60,224 bases of DNA, from IMG/VR virus record IMGVR_UViG_3300045988_031686. One strand, written 5' to 3'. The DNA comes from a virus. The position numbers were made by a program, and so were the translations under genes. Positions 7,069 to 57,372 of the stretch are shown here, piece by piece (the first letter of the stretch is position 1; each line of letters starts with the position of its first letter). The notes below the pieces were generated by a model. It saw nothing but the letters and a program-made list of their open reading frames with translations, was not told the origin of the DNA and ran no database searches.

Positions 7069-7157
7069 GAAGATTGTGCGTTACCAATATGGTAGCAGGC
7101 GGCACACTTTAAGGGTGGTGGGCGGTGTGCCAATTTTACGATTACAGGAGAAATGGC

Positions 7158-7466
7158 ATGAAAGGTTTATTATTGCAGACATATACAATCGCATTACCTG
7201 TAATACTCGGATATATAGTATGGCTTTTGCAACAGCAGAAGAAAGGTAAGGACGCAAACAGCAAAGGTACAATGCTGCTCTTGCGTGTGCAGCTCATTGA
7301 ATACCACGACAAGTATATGAAGTTGGGTGAAATACCTTCTTATGCGTATGACAACTTCGTTGAGATGTACAACGCATACCACGCATTAGGTGGTAACGGC
7401 ATGGTTACGAAGATGTATAACGAGATACAGGCATTACATTTAGGCAAAGCAGGAGGTAAGGATTGA
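7158..7466 (+). CDS. N-terminally membrane-anchored protein (holin-associated?)
   Basis: ATG 7158 lies 7 nt after CAGGAG. One TM segment, TIALPVILGYIVWLL, followed by a basic stretch. Confidence 0.5.
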   Translation: MKGLLLQTYTIALPVILGYIVWLLQQQKKGKDANSKGTMLLLRVQLIEYHDKYMKLGEIPSYAYDNFVEMYNAYHALGGNGMVTKMYNEIQALHLGKAGGKD

Positions 7467-7735
7467 TGGACATTACACAGGTATCAACAGTAGTTGCAAT
7501 CGTTGTTATCACTTACTTAATCGGGTTAGCTGTTAAGGCAATCCCACAGATTAAGGACAACTACATTCCCATAATCGTAGGTATTGCAGGCGGTATCTTA
7601 GGTATTATCGGTATGTATGTGATTCCTGATTTCCCGGCAAATGACATTCTCAATGCTATTGCGGTCGGCATAGTGTCGGGACTGTCAAGCACTGGTGTAA
7701 ATCAGATTTACAAGCAGGTGAAGAAAGATGCTTGA
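7466..7735 (+). CDS. Holin
   Basis: About 89 aa with 2-3 TM segments, ending GIVSGLSSTGVNQIYKQVKKD, typical of Gram-positive phage holins. Confidence 0.6.
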   Translation: MDITQVSTVVAIVVITYLIGLAVKAIPQIKDNYIPIIVGIAGGILGIIGMYVIPDFPANDILNAIAVGIVSGLSSTGVNQIYKQVKKDA

Positions 7736-8186
7736 CATCAATAAGCAGAACATGAAGTACTCTCGGCAAGGGCAGACAGTCACAATCTATGAAAGAGACG
7801 AAGAAGGTAATCTTGTTTACATAGGGCATACTGATTCTGATGGCAATTTTTATCCTTATTTTGACGATGATGGCAACCCAATCCCTAAAGAGTTAGGAAC
7901 TAAAATAGGATTCTCTGAACCTGTTAGCTTTAAGGCTAATATATCTTTTAGTGGTGGCGAGGCACAGGCTGAAGAATACGGCTTTAACGTAGCTGATTTT
8001 GACGCGGTTTTGCTGACGGAACGAAATAAATTTCCATTTAGTAAAGGAGACATTATTTGGCTTGATAGTATTCCGACATTCGATAGCGATGGATTAGTTG
8101 ACAGCACATCGGCAGATTTTACTATTGTCGGAGTAAAGCCGTCTTTAACCTCCACAAAATACATGCTGAAAGCTCAGGTGAAGTAA
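7728..8186 (+). CDS. Putative head-closure / head-tail adaptor protein
   Basis: 152 aa; called from position in the connector module only. Confidence 0.4.
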   Translation: MLDINKQNMKYSRQGQTVTIYERDEEGNLVYIGHTDSDGNFYPYFDDDGNPIPKELGTKIGFSEPVSFKANISFSGGEAQAEEYGFNVADFDAVLLTERNKFPFSKGDIIWLDSIPTFDSDGLVDSTSADFTIVGVKPSLTSTKYMLKAQVK

Positions 8187-8725
8187 TGGCAAAGCGCAAG
8201 ATTACAGTTAATGTATTTTCGCAGAGGTCCATTAAGGACGCAATAAAAGGCTTACAGAGCTATCAAGATTATCTGACGTATAAATGCCAGCTGTTAGTGA
8301 CAAAATTGGCAGAAACCGGTGAGAAAGCGGCAATCGAAAAAATCACGGAAAGCCCACTCGGGAAAACTGTGAATCTAAGAATTGAGCGAGAGCCGATTAA
8401 CATGGGATGCAAAGCAATACTTATTGCAACCGGCAAGGCATTTAAGGCAGAAGGACGTGAGCCGTTTTATACATTGCTTGCAATAGAGTTTGGCGCTGGA
8501 ATTTATTTTAACAAAGGTAACGAAAACCCAAAAGCTGATAGTCTAGGGTTAGGTGTTGGAACTTACCCAGGGCAGATACATGCGTTTGAAGATGGGTGGT
8601 ATTACCTTGGAAACGATAATAAGTGGCATTATACTCATGGTGTTAAAGCCACAATGCCTATGTACAGCGCAAGCATGGAGATTATTCAGAGGTATAAAGC
8701 TATTGCAAAGGAGGTATTTGACTAA
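8186..8725 (+). CDS. Putative tail-completion protein (HK97 gp10-like position)
   Basis: 179 aa, translationally coupled to its neighbours. Confidence 0.4.
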   Translation: MAKRKITVNVFSQRSIKDAIKGLQSYQDYLTYKCQLLVTKLAETGEKAAIEKITESPLGKTVNLRIEREPINMGCKAILIATGKAFKAEGREPFYTLLAIEFGAGIYFNKGNENPKADSLGLGVGTYPGQIHAFEDGWYYLGNDNKWHYTHGVKATMPMYSASMEIIQRYKAIAKEVFD

Positions 8726-9825: not shown

Positions 9826-10278
9826 ATGATAACATTCGATATCGATAACAAGGAATATAAGTTAGAGTTTGGCTTTGATGCGGCAGAGAACAAAGACATT
9901 GTCCAGAAGATGTTCGATTACATGACTGGCGCATATATCTACAAGGAAACTGGAAACACAATTACTGCAACATCTAACGGTGCGGCTAAGATGGTGGCTG
10001 ATTACAGCGAAGTATGTCAGATGGCTTTTTATGCCGGATGCTTACAGCACAATGCAGTGTCAAGAGCAGAGGCTAAGACTTTAACAAGAGCATATATTAC
10101 ACAGAAGAGAAAGACAGATAGCAAGTACGGTTATTATCAGTTATTCGAGGATATTAAGATTGCTATGGCGGACGATGGTTTTTTCGAACTGAGCGGCTTG
10201 GCTCAGACAGTAGAGGAGATGAACAAGTCGGCGGCGGAGCAATTGGAGAAGATGCAGAAAGAGAAGTCAAAGAAGTAA
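9826..10278 (+). CDS. Tail assembly chaperone (gpG analogue)
   Basis: 150 aa, acidic, between the major tail protein and tape measure genes. Confidence 0.65.
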   Translation: MITFDIDNKEYKLEFGFDAAENKDIVQKMFDYMTGAYIYKETGNTITATSNGAAKMVADYSEVCQMAFYAGCLQHNAVSRAEAKTLTRAYITQKRKTDSKYGYYQLFEDIKIAMADDGFFELSGLAQTVEEMNKSAAEQLEKMQKEKSKK

Positions 10279-10655
10279 ACTTTCATAAGTTGATATGGGA
10301 AGAATACTTCCCGCTTGCTTTTTCAATCGGAATCAGTCTTGAACAGTTCAAAAAGCTTACTCCTAAGACACTTGGGTATTGCCTTAAAGGCGAAGAATTA
10401 CGGCGCAAAGAGCGTGACCGGGAAATGTGGATGTGGACACGCCAATACGGCATACCGGCAATCATCATCGGAACAAGAGGCGGTGCATGGGGCAAGGATA
10501 AGGTTGAATATCCTGAACAGGCTATATATGTTGCACAAGACCCAGTGGAGCAAGAACGGCTTGCAGAACGAAAAAGACAGGAGTTACTTGCACAGCTTAT
10601 GAGTATGCAAGAGAGCTTTGAACGCAATAAGAGAGAAAGAGGCGGTACAGAGTAA
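9826..10655 (+). CDS. Tail assembly chaperone G-T fusion made by a -1 programmed frameshift at 10179-10185
   Basis: The -1 frame is open from 10158 to 10655 and overlaps the end of the G ORF. The heptamer T_TTT_TTC is in the correct phase. Confidence 0.5.
10179..10185 (+). promoter_or_regulatory. Slippery heptamer T TTT TTC (-1 programmed ribosomal frameshift site)
   Basis: Zero-frame codons are ggt ttt ttc. After the slip the ribosome reads ttt ttt cga in the open -1 frame. Confidence 0.5.
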
Positions 10656-10694: not shown

Positions 10695-11972
10695 ATGGCA
10701 GAAGTTGACAGCTTGGAGATTGGGTTGCAGGCGAACGCTAAAAAAGCGAATGACAGCATTGAAACCCTTATCACTAAGCTTGGTAGACTTGCATCGGCAT
10801 TAGGGAGTGTCAACGGCTCACAGCTTAGTACACTGACTATGAATGTCAATAATTTAGGTGCGTCCATGAAGTCGATAAATGATGTCGGCACAGCAAGCTT
10901 CACTAGACTTGCAAAAAACATCGGACAGATAGCAAGCGTCGACAGTTCAGCACTTAATACGGTTGCAAGCTCACTTAATTCCACGGCGAGCGCATTTAAC
11001 CAGTTTACGGCGGTATCTGAAAATGCAACTAAGATAGGTGAGGTTGCAAAGAACATATCTAAACTTGGCAATAAGAGCGTGCAGACCGCAGTAACCAACA
11101 TTCCGCAGTTGGCGACAGCACTTCAAGGGTTATTCACAACGCTTTCAAGTACACCGACAGTAAGCAATAACGTCATCCAGATGACTAACGCATTGGCGAA
11201 TTTAGCGAGTCAAGGTTCAAGGGTAGGTTCTGCTTCACGGACAATTCAAAGAAGCCTAAATGGGGTTCAGAGAAGCGTACAGATGGCAACCAAAAGCACA
11301 TGGTCACTGGCTAAGGCGTTCGGAAAGTTTTACGCATCATACTTTATGGTTGTGCGAGGAGCTAAGGGCTTGTGGAAGTCCATTGAAAGCACCACGGACT
11401 ATATCGAGGCATTTAACTACTATGCGGTTGCATTTGGCAAAATCGGCTCCGAATGGGGCAAAGACTTTGAAAAGTACGGCTATGACAATGCTACCGATTA
11501 TGCGAACAGCTTTTCGGATAGAGTAAGCGCATTGCTTGGTAAACTTTCAGGACTGCAGGTTGATGTTGAGGGTGGCTTGCTTACGGCAGACAGTGCAAAG
11601 AACTTAGGCTTGAATATCCAAGAGGTTACGGAGTTTGCGTCACAGCTTGCTTCGGTGACTAATTCGCTTGGACAGACAGGAGAGACAACCACGGCAGTAG
11701 CAAAGTCAATGACAATGCTTGCAGGCGATATAAGCTCTCTTTTCAACATAGACTATACATCCGTAGCCACCAACATACAAAGTGGCTTAATCGGTCAATC
11801 AAGGGCATTGTACAAGTATGGTATTGATATTACCAATGCCACATTGCAGACATACGCTTACAACTTAGGCGTTGAAAAATCCATAAGTGAAATGACACAG
11901 ATGGAAAAGCAGCAGTTAAGAGTACTTGCTATACTTGACCAGTCTAAGGTTTCATGGGGTGATTTAGCTAAT
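10695..11972 (+). CDS. Tape measure protein, exon 1 (the ORF runs on to a stop at 12020 inside the intervening sequence)
   Basis: Ala/Ser/Leu-rich helical protein following the chaperones. Ends ...QSKVSWGDLAN at the proposed 5' splice site. Confidence 0.75.
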
Positions 11973-13246
11973 AAACGGAAGAAAGTTTATAAATTAACTT
12001 ATCTTCCAAGTGTTGCATAAGAATAGAAATATCTTATGACAATCGGGCAATATCGGTGAAGGCTAAGGCTTTTAAAAACAAGATTTATATGGTATAATAT
12101 AAGCATGAATAAAACTTATATTATATACAAAGTAACCAATAAAATCAATAACAAAATTTATATCGGAAAAACTTATAATTTAGAAAAAAAGAAAAGCCCA
12201 ACATTTATATGATATAGATGATGAGCTACCTTTTCATGCGGCTCTGAAAAAATACGGCATTAATAATTTTGAATGGGAGATTATTGATTATTCAGAGAGT
12301 GATAAGGAAATAAGGGAGAAAGAAATTTACTGGATTAAAAAATACAACTCATGTATATTTTTTGAGAACTCACAAGGCTACAATCTTACACTTGGCGGTG
12401 AAGGTGGAGTGTCTTGGAACTCTAAACCTGTATTACAGTATGGTTTAGACGGAAAATTTCTTAATGAATATATTAGCGCTGCTCATGCAAGTACATCAAC
12501 AGGAGTTCAGCGTAGAGATATTGCGAAATGTGCAAACGGTGTCATCAAAAGAGCGGGTAAATATATTTGGCGTTTTAAAATCAGCAATTATCCAAAGCAA
12601 ATTGTTCCTTATAGCGGTAAAACAAGTGCAAGAAAACACAAGGTAATGCAACTTGACAAAGATGGGTTTGTTTTAAATATTTTTGATTCACTTACTCAAG
12701 CAAGTAAAGAAACATCAACGCCAAGAACAAGCATATCTTTTTGTTTAAATAAGACTTATGGTACTGCAAATAATTTTGTTTGGATATACGCTGATGAATA
12801 CAATCCATGTAAAGATTATAAGTATAAAGGCATAAAAGAAGGAAAAGGCATTTACCAGTTAGATGAAAATAAAAATATTGTTAATCATTTTAATAACTGC
12901 ACAGAAGCAGCAAGATTTTTAAATGAACCTGAAAAGGTACATAAACAAATATTTAAAGCAATTAAAACTGGAAATAAATGTAGAGGATTTTATTGGACTA
13001 AAGTTGAAAGCTATGCTAATACCGAGATAACTCAATAGATTGCGAGCAGGCTATTGAGTATCGTAACGAGTAGGAAGTGAATAAATATAATCTTCCCAAG
13101 AGTGTCCGACACTACTGCATGTAGGGCAGTATGAGGTGGAAGTGGCTACCACCAAACCAAACGTAAAACGTGGGTGATAATGTACTCTGAACTTATAGGA
13201 AACTATAAGAAGTATAGGATAAAGAACCTATACGATAACATAATTG
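11973..13246 (+). mobile_element. Group-I-intron-like intervening sequence carrying a GIY-YIG homing endonuclease gene
   Basis: Preceded by U (11972) and ends in G (13246). Joining the flanks restores one TMP frame. Dense hairpins at 11977-12007, 13031-13058, 13073-13096, 13135-13153, 13192-13209 (GAAA loop) and 13212-13233. Confidence 0.6.
12105..13038 (+). pseudogene. Intron-encoded GIY-YIG homing endonuclease, frameshifted at the A7 run 12184-12190
   Basis: Frame 0 reads MNKTYIIYKVTNKINNKIYIGKTYNLEKK and then stops. The +1 frame continues KRKAQHLYD...EKEIYWIKKYN...GYNLTLGGEG plus a C-terminal repeat region. An A6 run would give one ORF. Confidence 0.75.
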
Positions 13247-16200
13247 ACAATCAATTCCCCAAGTAACATGATTAGGCAATTCAACACAAATATTAAAGAG
13301 ACAGGCATGGTATTAGGACAGATTTTTATACCTGTCCTTCAAAAGGTTATGCCTGTTGTTAATGGTGTAACAATCGCCATTAAGCGTATGCTTGTGGGCG
13401 TTGCAAGCCTTATGGGTGTCAAGATTGATTTTGACGCTTTCGGTCAGAATGGCTATAAGGACACCACAGACGGCTTAGAGGATATAGCAGACGGCTATGA
13501 CAACGTGGCAGATGCGGCTAAGAACGCACAAAAGGGTGTTCGTGGATTTGACGAACTTAATAATATCAGTACTGACACGAATAAAAGCGGCGCTTCCGCT
13601 GGCACAGGTGATACGATTGACCTCACGGACGAGATTGTTAAGGCTACGGAAGAATACGAAAAAGTTTGGAACGATGCTTTTGATAAGATGGAGAATAAAG
13701 CCGAGGCATGGGCTGATAAAGTGCAAGGCTTTTTTGAGCGCATGTTCAAACCGCTTAAAACATGGGGCAGTAAAATTGACTGGAAAAAGCTTAAAAACGG
13801 CTTTAATAGCGTTTTAGACTTTGCTAAGAAGTTTACAGTTGGCACAGGTTCAGGCTTTTTGGATTTCATCGAGGGCTTATCCGACATTGGCGCACCTGCT
13901 ATCAATTTGTTAGGTGGTGCTGTAGAAATATTATTCAAGGCGCTTAATTTAGTCCCAGCTCCAGTGTGGCATACATTGGGCGGTGCTTTAGGTGGTGTGT
14001 TAACAGCTCTTCTTGCGTTTAAAGCTTATTCCACTATTGCAAGTGGTATAAATACTGGCTTAGGCAAATTTGCCGATGCAATTCTGAAAATATCTAACGC
14101 AAAACCAGTTAGTGTCGGTGATGGTGTTGGTAAACTTGGTACAGCAATAGCTTCATTAAGCACAGGCGGATATGTTGTGCTTGCTGTTGGCGCATTAGCA
14201 GCGGTGGCAGGAGCTATTATATCTATTGAGCAAGCCTATAAGAACAGCATTGACACATTCACGCAAACAAGTGTATTTGATGGTCAAGGTACACCAATAG
14301 GCGATATAGCACAACAAGTAATCGACCTTATCAATGCAACCGGAACGTCAAGTGAAGATATGGCTAATTTTGCAACGGAGCTTGACAGAGTAAATACAAA
14401 CTTACAAAGTGCAAGTGAAGAAGTTGAAAATCTTAAATTCAAGTTTGACAACTTAGATTTAAAGAACATATCTGATACGGATATAGAAGATATGCGTACA
14501 GCAGTCGGCGACCTTGCTTCCGCATTGCGCGATGATTTGCATGTTAGTTCCGATATGGCATGGGACGCTTTGGCTAAGATGTCCGCAGATACAGCAACGA
14601 AGTTAGGGGTTAGTGTGGGTGAAATGACAACCATATTGTCGAATTTTAATGCTAGATTTAACGGCATTTACAGCGATATGGAATCGCAAGCTAATACGAT
14701 TTTTGACAAAATGCTTAGCGGCGAAGCTACGCAAGCAGACGTTGACGCACTTAATGGCTTGCTTGATGACATGAATTATCTAAGCGGTGAAGCCATAAAA
14801 CGACAGGTTGACTTGCAAAACAGCTTTAAGGACATAACAAATATCAATTTTGGAAGTGTTGAAGAAACCACACAGGCAATCGCACAAATAACGGAAGCAG
14901 GGCAAGCTAAACTTGCGGAAGTTGACGAATATTACCAAAACCTTATAGGGCAAGCTGATGAATGGAAAATATATACTCAACGTGCTTTGGAGCGCGGAAA
15001 AATTACTCCGGAAGAAGCAGGGCAATACCTTGACTGGATTGGTAATCTCACGGAAATATATGATGCTAACTGGACTGAGGAAAGAGGCAACATTACCAAA
15101 CAGATAAACACAACATTTGACTACATACAGTCACAAGTTGAAAAAGCAGGAGTTGAAGCTTTCCAAGAGGCACAGACAAAAGACTGGGGATTTGCTGATT
15201 TATTCAAGAATCCAATACAGGATGTTGTTAAGAGCGTTAATAAGAATATGGTACAACCAACTATTACCGCAATCAATCAAGGAAAAGAACAGATTGGCAT
15301 TGAAATATCCAAAGACAATCATTTGTATGAAAGATGGCTTGACAATGCTGCCATATCCGAAAATGATGTAAGCGGTTGGGCTATGAAAAATGCTAATGCT
15401 ATCGGAAATGCAGTATTAGCTAATGCCGATATAACTACCAAGGCTTTTGCTGAAATGGCAGGATATGACGTAAGTGGCTATACAGATACAATCGAAAAAT
15501 ATCAACCTATTGTAAAAACGTCTCTGATAAACATGAATAACAATGCAATAATGGGTTTGCTGGATGAAGCAAATACTAAAATGCAAAATGTAGGTAAATC
15601 AGCTGTTACAAGTTATATCGGCGGTGTAAATAGCAATTCTCAACAGCTTATTAAGCCAGTAGCCGGACTTGCCAACTTATCCCTTAGTACTTTTATGGAG
15701 GCTCAAGGTTCGCAAGGTGATAAACCGTCATCGGGTTTTAATAGTATTGGTCAAAATTCTATATTAGGGTATATGGAAGGCATTAAAGCGCTTACTTTAG
15801 CAGTGACAGATAAAATGAAAAAACTTGGAGGAATGGCAAGTACTGCTTTTGCTGATAAAGTAACTGTTGGTATGCCAAGTGTAGGTGTCCAAGTAATGAA
15901 CGGATTTATGAACGGCTTATCGTCTATGGAAACCACACTGTACTCTAAGGTTGACAAGATAGCGGCTAACGTGGCTACAACAATGCAGAAAGCACTTGAC
16001 ATCCATTCACCATCAAGGGTGATGTTTGAGCTTGGTGCCTACACCACAGAGGGCTTCAAAGATGGCATGGAGAGCCTTTATGAGGCAACGCAGTTGTCGG
16101 CAAAGGATTTTGGCTTTGGTGTTGTTGAAGCTGTACACCCACAGCAGTTGTACAGTGACTATGTGAGCAGTACGCCGACTGTTAGCCCTATTCCAAGCAC

Positions 16201-16399
16201 TACAACGCAGAATTATTACAATTCCAACACAAGCGTTGACAATGCAGAAACTAATGCACTGTTGAGAGAGCAGAACCAGTTGTTGCAGCGTATTCTTGCA
16301 AAGGAATACGGCATAAGCAAAGACGATATAGGAAAAGCGTCAAGAGATTATGCAAGAGACTATTTCAGGCGCACAGGGCGAGACGCTTATACATTTTAA
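13247..16399 (+). CDS. Tape measure protein, exon 2
   Basis: Reads TINSPSNMIRQF... for 1050 aa. The frame is closed by TAA 13241-13243. Only a TTG without Shine-Dalgarno is available at 13244. Confidence 0.75.
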   Translation, partial: TINSPSNMIRQFNTNIKETGMVLGQIFIPVLQKVMPVVNGVTIAIKRMLVGVASLMGVKIDFDAFGQNGYKDTTDGLEDIADGYDNVADAAKNAQKGVRGFDELNNISTDTNKSGASAGTGDTIDLTDEIVKATEEYEKVWNDAFDKMENKAEAWADKVQGFFERMFKPLKTWGSKIDWKKLKNGFNSVLDFAKKFTVGTGSGFLDFIEGLSDIGAPAINLLGGAVEILFKALNLVPAPVWHTLGGALGGVLTALLAFKAYSTIASGINTGLGKFADAILKISNAKPVSVGDGVGKLGTAIASLSTGGYVVLAVGALAAVAGAIISIEQAYKNSIDTFTQTSVFDGQGTPIGDIAQQVIDLINATGTSSEDMANFATELDRVNTNLQSASEEVENLKFKFDNLDLKNISDTDIEDMRTAVGDLASALRDDLHVSSDMAWDALAKMSADTATKLGVSVGEMTTILSNFNARFNGIYSDMESQANTIFDKMLSGEATQADVDALNGLLDDMNYLSGEAIKRQVDLQNSFKDITNINFGSVEETTQAIAQITEAGQAKLAEVDEYYQNLIGQADEWKIYTQRALERGKITPEEAGQYLDWIGNLTEIYDANWTEERGNITKQINTTFDYIQSQVEKAGVEAFQEAQTKDWGFADLFKNPIQDVVKSVNKNMVQPTITAINQGKEQIGIEISKDNHLYERWLDNAAISENDVSGWAMKNANAIGNAVLANADITTKAFAEMAGYDVSGYTDTIEKYQPIVKTSLINMNNNAIMGLLDEANTKMQNVGKSAVTSYIGGVNSNSQQLIKPVAGLANLSLSTFMEAQGSQGDKPSSGFNSIGQNSILGYMEGIKALTLAVTDKMKKLGGMASTAFADKVTVGMPSVGVQVMNGFMNGLSSMETTLYSKVDKIAANVATTMQKALDIHSPSRVMFELGAYTTEGFKDGMESLYEATQLSAKDFGFGVVEAVHPQQLYSDYVSSTPTVSPIPSTTTQNYYNSNTSVDNAETNALLREQNQLLQRILAKEYGISKDDIGKASRDYARDYFRRTGRDAYTF

Positions 16400-56824: not shown

Positions 56825-56896
56825 TGGGCTATCGTCAAGTGGTAAGGCACAGCACTTTGACTGCTGTATTCGTGGGTTCGAATCCCACTAGCCCAG
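56825..56896 (+). tRNA. tRNA-Gln (anticodon UUG)
   Basis: Acceptor stem tgggcta/tagccca, anticodon stem cagca/tgctg, anticodon loop cttTGac with anticodon TTG, T-arm gtggg-ttcgaat-cccac. No encoded CCA. Confidence 0.85.
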
Positions 56897-57124: not shown

Positions 57125-57198
57125 CGGGATATAGTTCAGCTTGGCAGAACGCTCCACTTGGGATGGAGAGGTCGTAGGTTCAAATCCTGCTATTCCGA
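57125..57198 (+). tRNA. tRNA-Pro (anticodon UGG)
   Basis: Acceptor stem cgggata/tattccg, D-arm gttc/gaac, anticodon stem ctcca/tggag, anticodon loop ctTGGga, T-arm gtagg-ttcaaat-cctgc. Confidence 0.85.
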
Positions 57199-57300
57199 CT
57201 GCCTCGAATGAGGCGCAAAGCAATACCCCTTTTGATTCAATTTTCGTGCAGCCTTGCTACCGCTCGGCAAGTAAAACAAAGAGCGGACATGACGCATTAG

Positions 57301-57372
57301 TCAAGTGGTTAAGACACAGCCTTTTCACGGTGGAGACGTGAGTTCGATTCTCTCATGCGTCACTTAGACGTA
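57301..57372 (+). tRNA. tRNA-Glu (anticodon UUC), with mismatches
   Basis: Acceptor stem gacgcat/atgcgtc, anticodon loop ttTTCac, T-loop ttcgatt. One A-G mismatch in the anticodon stem and one U-U mismatch in the T stem. Confidence 0.65.

What the first reader, a model, noticed from the sequence alone, without database searches (positions are those of the whole stretch)
10695..16399. Tape-measure gene split by a 1.27-kb intervening sequence with group I intron hallmarks
Two ORFs (10695-12020 and 13244-16399) both look like tape-measure protein. The first reads ...QSKVSWGDLAN and then runs 48 nt into AT-rich sequence to a stop. The second frame is closed by TAA at 13241-13243 and has only a TTG with no Shine-Dalgarno, but from 13247 it reads TINSPSNMIRQF.... 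Joining 11972 to 13247 is in frame and gives one 1,476-aa protein. The upstream exon ends in U and the insert ends in G, as group I splicing requires. The insert carries a GIY-YIG endonuclease ORF. Its non-ORF parts are packed with hairpins: 11977-12007, 13031-13058, 13073-13096, 13135-13153, a GAAA-tetraloop hairpin at 13192-13209, and 13212-13233. I could not assign P1/IGS or P7 by eye.
Basis: partly seen in the sequence, partly recalled or inferred. Interest (0 to 1): 0.7.

Follow-up and report, generated by a model that had tools for sequence, protein, structure and literature searches.

The report
Group I intron splitting tape-measure gene
The phage's tail tape-measure gene is interrupted by a 1,274-base self-splicing (group I) intron carrying a broken homing-endonuclease gene, which is a real but already well-known kind of mobile element in phage tail genes.

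Summary
ORFs 10695-12020 and 13244-16399 are two halves of one tape-measure gene. Joining 11972 to 13247 gives a 1,476-aa protein. It reads ...WGDLAN|TINSPSN..., as in 11 uninterrupted protein homologues and 24 intron-less prophage alleles.

The 1,274-nt insert (11973-13246) has a complete group I core: P1 with a U·G wobble at the 5' splice site, P2, the P3/P7 pseudoknot, P4, P5, P6, P7.1, an enlarged P8, P9, P9.1 and a terminal G.

Rfam's Intron_gpI model misses it, and also misses 20 of 20 relatives, so this is a false negative. A covariance model built from 36 unrelated members of the same phage intron family hits the window once (13063-13240, 120 bits, E 4e-26). It also hits the proven phage JCL1032 tape-measure intron. 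Covariation supports every core helix except P5, which was left out of the tested alignment.

One correction: the GIY-YIG/NUMOD1 endonuclease gene in the P5 loop is frameshifted (A7 instead of A6 at 12184-12190). Near-identical phages mostly carry the same intron without the ORF.

Tape-measure group I introns are already documented, so this is a new member of a known kind. Splicing itself is inferred, not shown.

The parts
10695..11972 (+). Tape-measure gene exon 1 (426 codons, ends ...WGDLAN; last base U11972)
   Evidence: ORF. PHROG tail / tape-measure hits, with phrog_28918 profile 2-192. Homologue alignment A1.
11973..13246 (+). Group I intron, 1,274 nt
   Evidence: The insert is absent from 24 prophage alleles and 11 protein homologues. 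Core helices covary. Model R1 hits it.
11969..12015 (+). P1. Exon UAAU (11969-11972) plus A11973 pairs with the internal guide UGUUG (12011-12015), with a U11972·G12012 wobble at the splice site. The distal extension is GGAAGA 11977-11982 / UCUUCC 12002-12007. Possible 2-bp P10: U12011-A13247 and G12010-C13248.
   Evidence: Read from the sequence. The extension hairpin is recovered in the MFE fold of the ORF-less twin. There is no covariation test because all same-site relatives share the guide sequence.
12016..12038 (+). P2 hairpin, CAUAAGA / UCUUAUG. The exon-1 reading frame stops at UAA 12018-12020 inside it.
   Evidence: L006 has CAUAGGG / CCCUAUG, which is two compensatory changes.
12043..12048 (+). 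P3 5' strand, UCGGGC. It pairs with 13104-13109, about 1,060 nt away.
   Evidence: 70 of 92 family loci have a perfectly complementary hexamer pair. Variants include UCGAGC/GCUCGA, CCCAGC/GCUGGG, UCCCGU/GCGGGA and UUGACC/GGUCGA.
12053..12058 (+). P4 5' strand, UCGGUG. It is preceded by J3/4 AAUA (12049-12052) and followed by J4/5 AA.
   Evidence: P4/P4' covariation: UCGGGG/UCCCGA, ACGGUG/CACCGU, UCGGCA/UGCCGA.
12061..12065 (+). P5 5' strand, GGCUA. The endonuclease gene sits in the P5 loop (L5).
   Evidence: Comparison with ORF-less copies L005 and L017, and with L010-L012, where P5 is AGC/GCU or CCU/AGG.
12105..13038 (+). GIY-YIG + NUMOD1 homing-endonuclease gene, frameshifted. It starts at ATG 12105. 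The A7 run at 12184-12190 is A6 in intact relatives. A premature TGA lies at 12210-12212. The remainder is in the +1 frame up to TAG 13036-13038. Its last 9 codons overlap P5', P4' and the P6 5' strand.
13012..13025 (+). P5 3' strand (UAUGCU, 13012-13017), J5/4 AA, and P4 3' strand (UACCGA, 13020-13025)
13026..13062 (+). P6 hairpin, 12 bp with a bulged A. The loop AUUGCGAGCAGG corresponds to the family-conserved GAUUGCGAAAGGC.
   Evidence: 9 of 12 pairs show changes on both sides. Also recovered in the MFE fold.
13063..13072 (+). J6/7 (GUA) and P7 5' strand: A13066, bulged C13067, then GAGUA 13068-13072. G13068-C13187 is the presumed guanosine-binding pair.
   Evidence: P7 is 100% paired across the family. 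Variants are GCGUA/UACGC, GCAUA/UAUGC, GAGUA/UACUC and, in JCL1032, GACUA/UAGUC. The pair outside the bulge covaries as G-C / A-U / C-G.
13073..13096 (+). P7.1 hairpin, GGAAG / CUUCC, with the near-invariant 14-nt loop UGAAUAAAUAUAAU
   Evidence: All 5 pairs covary.
13104..13109 (+). P3 3' strand, GUCCGA. It is preceded by the invariant linker CAAGAGU (13097-13103).
13110..13176 (+). Enlarged P8. A CAC / GUG closing stem (13110-13112 / 13174-13176) encloses three hairpins: 13113-13131, 13135-13153 and 13157-13173. This is a 59-nt expansion specific to this lineage.
   Evidence: R1 aligns the closing stem with a 59-nt insertion. Within the lineage, the first hairpin shows compensatory changes (UACUGC/GCAGUA, UUCCGU/ACGGAA, UACUGU/ACAGUA) and so does the third (ACGU/ACGU, ACAU/AUGU). 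The topology of the junction is not settled.
13177..13188 (+). J8/7 (AUAAUG) and P7 3' strand (UACUC + U, 13183-13188)
13192..13209 (+). P9 hairpin, 7 bp with a GAAA tetraloop
   Evidence: 5 of 7 pairs covary.
13212..13246 (+). P9.1 hairpin (13212-13233) and the 3' tail GAUAACAUAAUUG, ending in the terminal guanosine G13246
   Evidence: All 6 tested P9.1 pairs covary. The tail is conserved across the family as GAUAACA...G.
13247..16399 (+). Tape-measure gene exon 2 (1,050 codons plus stop, begins TINSPSNMIRQF)
   Evidence: PHROG tape-measure families, with phrog_28918 profile 193-403.

Best explanation
The insert 11973-13246 is a mobile group I intron of the phage subgroup-IA type. It sits in the tail tape-measure gene of an uncultured phage, or prophage, of gut Clostridia / Lachnospiraceae.

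Proposed mechanism (inferred):
1. The gene is transcribed as one pre-mRNA.
2. The intron folds into the P3-P9 ribozyme core. The guide sequence UGUUG (12011-12015) pairs with the exon end UAAU, placing U11972 opposite G12012.
3. A free guanosine bound at the P7 pocket (the G13068-C13187 pair, next to the bulged C13067) attacks after U11972.
4. The terminal G13246 then replaces it in the pocket, and the exons are ligated as AAU|ACA.
5. The spliced mRNA encodes a single 1,476-aa tape-measure protein. Unspliced RNA would give only a 441-aa fragment that stops at UAA 12018.

The intron once spread by homing, through the GIY-YIG/NUMOD1 endonuclease gene lodged in the P5 loop. In this copy that gene is inactivated by a +1 A frameshift, so this copy is now probably inherited passively.

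What is shown: the exact colinear junction, the core secondary structure with covariation, family membership, and the endonuclease frameshift.

What is inferred: splicing in vivo and in vitro, the exact P1 and P10 pairings, and past homing.
For: 1. Junction.
- 11 uninterrupted homologues (40-75% identity) read ...LAILDQSKVSWGDLAN|TINSPSN... across the join.
- 24 genome-borne relatives, up to 93% identical, are uninterrupted. They are colinear with the joined window DNA without gaps.
- phrog_28918 matches exon 1 at profile positions 2-192 and exon 2 at 193-403.

2. Ribozyme.
- Model R1 was built from 36 IMG/VR family members outside the window's lineage.
- It gives one hit in 60 kb: 13063-13240, 120.3 bits, E 4e-26, over the full model length.
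- The same model hits the JCL1032 tape-measure intron (73.8 bits). Rfam RF00028 recognises that intron at 59.4 bits against a threshold of 50, and it is annotated as a joined CDS.

3. Covariation.
- On A2, 97% of cells pair and 23 of 29 pairs change on both sides. In the slid controls, 31-42% of cells pair.
- On A3, which includes the window and the P3 pseudoknot, 96.7% of cells pair and 40 of 52 pairs covary.
- The window itself carries a unique compensatory A-U in P7.
- The P3 strands lie about 1 kb apart and are perfectly complementary in 70 of 92 loci, with many sequence variants.

4. An ORF-less copy of the same intron, 338-340 nt, sits at the same site in phages whose exon-1 protein is 97-99% identical. 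It folds with z = -4.9.

5. Exon 2 has no start codon with a ribosome-binding site.

6. Precedent: group I introns in tape-measure genes are documented in B. cereus-group prophages and in JCL1032 (PMC2504315; PMC6669764 citing Riipinen & Alatossava 2004).
Against: - Rfam RF00028 gives no hit on the window, even at E <= 10.
- P1 is short and weak: 5 pairs, two of them G·U. P10 has only 2 possible pairs. Neither could be tested by covariation, because all same-site relatives share the guide sequence.
- No P7.2 hairpin was found, so the subclass is unclear.
- P8 carries an unusual 59-nt, three-hairpin expansion.
- The P3 pairing in alignment A3 is 100% by construction, because loci were selected for it. 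The unbiased figure is 70 of 92.
- There are no transcript or splicing data.
Confidence: 0.93

Rival explanations
1. The insert is a decayed, no longer splicing intron remnant. The phage or prophage would then be defective, or would make only the 441-aa N-terminal fragment.
For: The homing endonuclease gene is frameshifted. P1 and P10 are weak. P8 carries a 59-nt expansion not seen in other family members. Rfam gives no hit.
Against: Every core helix is intact in the window. It scores 120 bits against a model built from other members, as high as typical members do. Differences between the window lineage and the rest of the family are compensatory: in P7, in two P8 side hairpins, and in P2 of L006. 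The same intron occurs in very many independent assemblies; the cluster around P0026 has 1,019 member sequences. That argues for purifying selection on a working ribozyme. Loss of the endonuclease gene does not affect splicing in known introns (established knowledge).
Confidence: 0.04
2. The tape-measure gene is truly split into two genes by a free-standing endonuclease cassette. The two polypeptides would be made separately and work together.
For: Gene callers annotate two or three separate genes in all relatives. Split genes around free-standing homing endonucleases exist in T4-like phages (from my own knowledge, not checked here).
Against: Exon 2 has no ATG with a Shine-Dalgarno sequence, and its frame is closed 3 nt upstream. 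ORF-less relatives still keep about 340 nt of structured, covarying RNA between the halves. The 15-residue tail of exon 1 is conserved only where the RNA forms the P1 extension stems.
Confidence: 0.02
3. The insert is another kind of intervening element: an intein, a group II intron, or an assembly chimera.
For: None beyond the interruption itself.
Against: The insert has stop codons in all three frames, so it is not an intein. It has no reverse transcriptase and no group II hit in Rfam. The same insert at the same site occurs in dozens of independent assemblies, so it is not a chimera.
Confidence: 0.01

Closest known systems
Group I intron in the tape-measure gene (ORF17) of Lactobacillus delbrueckii phage JCL1032 (Riipinen & Alatossava 2004, cited in PMC6669764)
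   Same: It interrupts a tape-measure gene, and its exon-1 reading frame also reads ...GELAN just before the intron. It shares J6/7-P7, J8/7-P7', P9, P9.1 and the 3' tail with the window. It is hit by the same model R1, at 73.8 bits.
   Different: It has no ORF. Between P7 and P3' it carries a longer, different insert instead of the conserved P7.1. Its P3 is different and its P8 is a simple hairpin. RF00028 recognises it but not the window. The tape-measure proteins are too diverged to align at E < 1e-3.
TMP-IVS1/2/3 group I introns (IA1/IA2) of Bacillus cereus-group prophages (Tourasse & Kolsto 2008, PMC2504315)
   Same: They are group I introns at conserved sites of prophage tape-measure genes. 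Some have degenerate or absent endonuclease genes. They show sequence homology to Staphylococcus phage and JCL1032 introns.
   Different: The hosts and the tape-measure lineages differ. Their sequences were not compared directly here.
An unnamed family of phage introns seen here in Staphylococcus phages (ROSA, BE20, 6ec, SA2), Clostridium/Clostridioides phages, Bacillus phage PJN02, crAss-like phages and at least 120 IMG/VR contigs
   Same: The core is the same: P3, P4, P6, P7, P7.1 with the loop UGAAUAAAUAUAAU, the linker CAAGAGU, P8, P9, P9.1 and the tail GAUAACA..G.
   Different: Host genes differ (terminase, helicase, DNA polymerase, head-tail genes, other tape-measure genes). Endonuclease types differ (HNH, LAGLIDADG, GIY-YIG) and so does the ORF position (P5 loop or upstream of P2). 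Only the window lineage has GAGUA/UACUC in P7 and the three-hairpin P8.
T4 td and Staphylococcus phage Twort orf142 introns (subgroup IA2)
   Same: From my own memory of these sequences, not tested here. The order is P7, then peripheral hairpin(s), then P3', P8, P7'. P7 contains a bulged nucleotide. The 3' end resembles that of Twort (...GAACAUAUAUGGAAACAUAUAG...GUAACAUAAUUG). T4 td also carries a GIY-YIG endonuclease (I-TevI).
   Different: No P7.2 hairpin was found here. In td the ORF sits in P6a, whereas here it sits in the P5 loop. No direct alignment was run.

Membership tests
Group I intron (self-splicing ribozyme) | Conserved core with P4-P6 and P3-P7-P8 helices, including the P3/P7 pseudoknot | tested here: met
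   Alignment A3 includes the window. 52 pairs were tested, 96.7% of cells pair, and 40 pairs change on both sides. P3 long-range complementarity holds in 70 of 92 loci.
Group I intron (self-splicing ribozyme) | Guanosine-binding P7 with a bulged nucleotide next to a G-C pair | tested here: met
   P7 is A13066, bulged C13067, then G13068-A13072, paired with U13183-U13188. It is 100% paired across the family, and the pair outside the bulge covaries. Function of the pocket is inferred.
Group I intron (self-splicing ribozyme) | 5' splice site after a U that forms a U·G wobble with an internal guide sequence (P1), and an intron ending in G | tested here: met
   U11972·G12012 lies within UAAU|A / UGUUG, and the terminal G is 13246. 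This rests on sequence only. There is no covariation for P1, and P10 has only 2 possible pairs.
Group I intron (self-splicing ribozyme) | Removing the insert restores an ORF colinear with uninterrupted homologues | tested here: met
Group I intron (self-splicing ribozyme) | Match to Rfam RF00028 (Intron_gpI) at the gathering score | tested here: not met
   No hit on the window, even at E <= 10. No hit on the ORF-less copy. No hit on 20 family loci. The related JCL1032 intron does hit, at 59.4 bits, and is linked to the window through model R1. I judge this a sensitivity gap in the Rfam model.
Group I intron (self-splicing ribozyme) | GTP-dependent self-splicing, or ligated exons in vivo | not testable with these tools
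   No transcript data are available here.
Subgroup IA2 (td / Twort type) | Two peripheral hairpins, P7.1 and P7.2, between P7 and P3' | tested here: not met
   P7.1 is present (13073-13096). Only the invariant single-stranded linker CAAGAGU lies between it and P3'. I therefore file it only as subgroup-IA-like.
GIY-YIG homing endonuclease (I-TevI-like, with NUMOD DNA-binding modules) | GIY-YIG catalytic domain plus a NUMOD-type DNA-binding domain | tested here: met
PHROG homing-endonuclease families, best 1.2e-31.
GIY-YIG homing endonuclease (I-TevI-like, with NUMOD DNA-binding modules) | Intact reading frame | tested here: not met
   A7 at 12184-12190, against A6 in five intact relatives. The result is a stop after 35 codons. 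A homopolymer sequencing error cannot be excluded.
Phage tail tape-measure protein | Homology to tape-measure families, and position after the tail genes | tested here: met
   phrog_1535, 1686, 1272, 5493, 58 and 4372, all named 'tail length tape measure protein'. Homologues carry PF10145 / PF20155. The joined protein is 1,476 aa.

The most novel reading that the evidence does not exclude
The window belongs to a large intron family of phages, mostly of Firmicutes, that Rfam does not detect. The family has a single P7.1 hairpin with a near-invariant 14-nt loop and no P7.2.

The window's own lineage has added a 59-nt, three-hairpin domain to P8. It persists at high prevalence in gut Clostridia / Lachnospiraceae-associated phages, mostly without its endonuclease gene.

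The most novel reading is that this is a distinct structural subclass of group I introns. Its retention without a homing gene would then reflect a selected role, such as timing or dosing tape-measure synthesis, rather than pure selfishness.
Probability: 0.1. Interest if true: 0.5.

Novelty: new member of a known kind. Interest (0 to 1): 0.3.

Why it matters
The practical value is for annotation. Gene callers split this tape-measure gene into two or three 'hypothetical' genes in every relative seen here. The standard Rfam model does not flag the intron either, so tail-length and host-range inferences from such genomes would be wrong.

The family-specific model and the conserved motifs found here could be used to re-annotate hundreds of gut-phage contigs. 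Useful motifs are the P7.1 loop UGAAUAAAUAUAAU and the linker CAAGAGU followed by P3'.

Biologically it adds one more case of a known pattern: group I introns and their endonucleases target the most conserved stretch of a phage structural gene. The relatives show every stage of the homing cycle side by side, from empty site to intact ORF, broken ORF and ORF-less intron.

It does not change what is known about how group I introns work.

Tried and rejected
- **Rfam on the window** at gathering score and at E <= 10 found only tRNAs and noise. Rfam on the ORF-less relatives L005 and L006, and on 20 family loci, found nothing. I rejected this as a refutation because RF00028 does hit the related JCL1032 intron.
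- **An alternative P7.** My first guess was AGAGU 13099-13103 with ACUCU 13184-13188. I rejected it because CAAGAGU is invariant across the family while P7' varies.
- **An alternative P3'.** I considered GUGGCUACC at 13141-13149, by analogy with 6ec and JCL1032. I rejected it because no complementary 5' strand exists, whereas UCGGGC / GUCCGA fits and covaries.
- **Megablast of the whole region against phages.** No close phage relative was found, only short intron-core matches.
- **blastn of the intron's 5' part.** It found only Bacillus phage PJN02.
- **L007 (P0001) and L164 (P0002).** These are uninterrupted homologues whose genes end early, in odd gene contexts. They may be assembly chimeras and were not used beyond the protein alignment.
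- **tblastn of the window tape-measure protein against JCL1032 and 6ec.** No hit at E < 1e-3, so homology of the insertion site in those phages rests only on the ...ELAN motif.
- **Promoter scan of the insert.** The number of promoter-like sites is no higher than in shuffled sequence.
Full report
**1. The observation**

- ORFs 10695-12020 (441 aa) and 13244-16399 (1,051 aa) are present as described.
- Exon 1 reads ...QSKVSWGDLAN, then continues 48 nt to TAA 12018-12020.
- The downstream frame is closed by TAA 13241-13243. It opens only with TTG 13244, and there is no Shine-Dalgarno sequence.
- Joining 11972 to 13247 is in frame and yields 1,476 aa.
- T11972 precedes the insert and G13246 ends it.
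- A shift of both borders by +1 would give the same mRNA. The U(-1) / terminal-G rule picks 11972|13247.

One detail is wrong. The GIY-YIG gene starts at ATG 12105, stops at TGA 12210-12212 after 35 codons, and resumes in the +1 frame up to TAG 13036-13038. Deleting one A from the A7 run at 12184-12190 restores a 310-aa protein with Pfam GIY-YIG (2.7e-9) and NUMOD1 (2.4e-14) domains.

**2. The two ORFs are one tape-measure gene, and the junction is exact**

- Both halves hit PHROG tape-measure families. For phrog_28918, exon 1 covers profile positions 2-192 and exon 2 covers 193-403, so the two matches abut.
- A search with a 370-aa junction-spanning query found two kinds of relative. Eleven cover the whole query and read ...LAILDQSKVSWGDLAN|TINSPSN(M/Q).R... 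straight through (40-75% identity). Many others, of 439-441 aa, stop exactly where exon 1 stops.
- A scan of bacterial genomes gave 25 relatives, up to 93% identical. They lie mostly in Lachnospiraceae and other gut Clostridia: Firmicutes bacterium CAG:882, Clostridium sp. CAG:510, Blautia producta, Roseburia and Butyribacter. Two MAGs are labelled Bacteroidales.
- All 24 that extend past the site are uninterrupted.
- The joined window DNA aligns with them base for base.

**3. The insert is a group I intron**

Rfam finds nothing in the insert, either at gathering score or at E <= 10.

The 3' non-coding part has blastn matches in 138-153 phage records. One is the tape-measure gene of Lactobacillus phage JCL1032. 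That gene is annotated as a joined CDS, RF00028 hits it at 59.4 bits against a threshold of 50, and the literature reports it as self-splicing (PMC6669764, citing Riipinen & Alatossava 2004).

A relative whose exon-1 protein is 83% identical (L005) carries a 341-nt ORF-less version of the same insert at the same site. Relatives at 97-99% (L014, L017) also carry ORF-less versions of 338-340 nt.

Comparison with these and with 13 annotated phage loci gave the structure below.

| Element | 5' strand | 3' strand / notes |
|---|---|---|
| P1 | UAAU\|A, 11969-11973 | UGUUG 12011-12015; U11972·G12012 wobble |
| P1 extension | 11977-11982 | 12002-12007 |
| P2 | 12016-12022 | 12032-12038 |
| P3 | 12043-12048 | 13104-13109 |
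| J3/4 | AAUA | |
| P4 | 12053-12058 | 13020-13025 |
| P5 | 12061-12065 | 13012-13017; endonuclease gene in its loop |
| P6 | 13026-13038 | 13051-13062 |
| J6/7 | GUA | |
| P7 | A13066, bulged C13067, 13068-13072 | 13183-13188 |
| P7.1 | 13073-13077 | 13092-13096 |
| Linker | CAAGAGU 13097-13103 | |
| P8 | 13110-13112 | 13174-13176; encloses three hairpins |
| P9 | 13192-13209 | GAAA loop |
| P9.1 | 13212-13233 | |
| 3' tail | GAUAACAUAAUUG | ends in G13246 |

**4. Statistical support**

- I aligned 36 non-redundant members that do not belong to the window's lineage (A2). On this alignment, 97% of cells pair, against 31-42% when partners are slid, and 23 of 29 pairs change on both sides.
- Model R1, built from A2, hits the window exactly once: 13063-13240, 120.3 bits, E 4e-26, over the full model length. 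It places a 59-nt insertion inside P8.
- R1 also hits JCL1032 (73.8 bits), Staphylococcus phage 6ec's tape-measure gene (81.3 bits), and the other reference loci.
- It finds nothing in the 25 intron-less prophage loci.
- For the long-range P3, I took the hexamer just upstream of the J3/4-P4 motif. It is perfectly complementary to the hexamer after CAAGAGN in 70 of 92 distinct loci, with many compensatory variants.
- P4/P4' also covary.
- Alignment A3 includes the window, with P3 written as a pseudoknot. It gives 96.7% paired cells and 40 of 52 covarying pairs. P3 in A3 is 100% paired by selection; one search gives the unbiased figure.
- The window contributes a unique compensatory A-U in P7 (GAGUA / UACUC, against GCGUA / UACGC elsewhere).
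- MFE folding recovers the helices, with z = -4.5 for the window's 3' part and z = -4.9 for the ORF-less twin.

**5. Why Rfam fails**

RF00028 also misses the ORF-less copy and 20 of 20 other family loci at gathering score.

**6. The endonuclease gene and the homing cycle**

- Five same-site relatives (L075, L101, L103, L114, L126) have intact GIY-YIG ORFs of 311-312 aa, with GAAAAAAG where the window has GAAAAAAAG. L054 has a different premature stop.
- L006 carries an intact ORF of 306 aa.
- Most same-site relatives are ORF-less.
- So the population shows empty sites, intron with an intact ORF, intron with a broken ORF, and ORF-less intron side by side.
- The ORF's last 9 codons overlap P5', P4' and the P6 5' strand. 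ORF-less copies retain that tail.
- A sequencing error in the A run cannot be excluded.

**7. Peculiarities**

- P8 is expanded to three hairpins in this lineage only. The first and third show compensatory changes within the lineage. The junction topology is unsettled.
- No P7.2 hairpin exists, so I do not assign subclass IA2.
- P1 (5 pairs) and P10 (2 pairs) are weak and could not be tested by covariation.

**8. What is known already**

Group I introns in tape-measure genes are described for B. cereus-group prophages. Those occupy three sites, belong to classes IA1 and IA2, and some have degenerate endonuclease genes. They show homology to Staphylococcus phage and JCL1032 introns (PMC2504315).

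The finding is therefore a correct identification of a new member of a known kind. Splicing itself remains inferred.

Noticed in passing
window 12184-12190: The A7 homopolymer frameshifts the intron's GIY-YIG endonuclease gene. Five relatives have A6 and intact ORFs of 311-312 aa. This could be real decay or a homopolymer sequencing error.
   Followed up: yes
window 12071-12098 (ATG at 12105): A promoter-like site, TTTAAA-16-TATAAT with an upstream TG (extended -10), ends 6 nt before the endonuclease ATG, which has no Shine-Dalgarno sequence. The TGGTATAATATAAG(C/T)ATG stretch is conserved in most ORF-bearing relatives. This hints at an internal promoter giving a leaderless endonuclease mRNA. 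The scan count is not above chance in this AT-rich region.
   Followed up: partly
L023 ~7085-8329, L047, L089, L119, L127; L019/L099: Other members of the same intron family interrupt more distant tape-measure genes within the same conserved motif, but about 3 codons further downstream (...ANTIN|MPANQ...) or at ...GDFAKT|...ANSVR. The JCL1032 exon-1 frame also reads ...GELAN at the intron border. The WGDLANTINSPSN region looks like a recurrent homing hot spot with several offsets.
   Followed up: partly
20 family loci listed, plus L005/L006: Rfam RF00028 detects none of these introns at its gathering score. They are members of a family with at least 120 IMG/VR hits.
   Followed up: yes
P0002, P0004, P0020 in alignment A1; L164 4001-5557; L007 4001-5425: Several uninterrupted tape-measure homologues end abruptly about 170 aa after the junction (...IIEDLN/H), or sit in unexpected gene contexts. 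This may be a second interruption site in those relatives or an assembly chimera. It remains unresolved.
   Followed up: partly
window 56825-56896, 57125-57198, 57291-57362: Three tRNA genes cluster on the + strand near the right end of the window.
   Followed up: no
window 9826-10278 and 10290-10655: Two short ORFs lie directly upstream of the tape-measure gene. The second has only a TTG start. Their position matches that of the usual tail-assembly-chaperone pair. This was not examined.
   Followed up: no
L002 (crAss-like phage cr118_1) 2529-2665; L012 (Bacillus phage PJN02) 1594-1746: The same intron core splits a DNA helicase gene in a crAss-like phage. In Bacillus phage PJN02 it splits a gene whose halves are annotated as exonuclease V and Dda-like helicase. 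Both are annotated as separate genes in the public records.
   Followed up: partly
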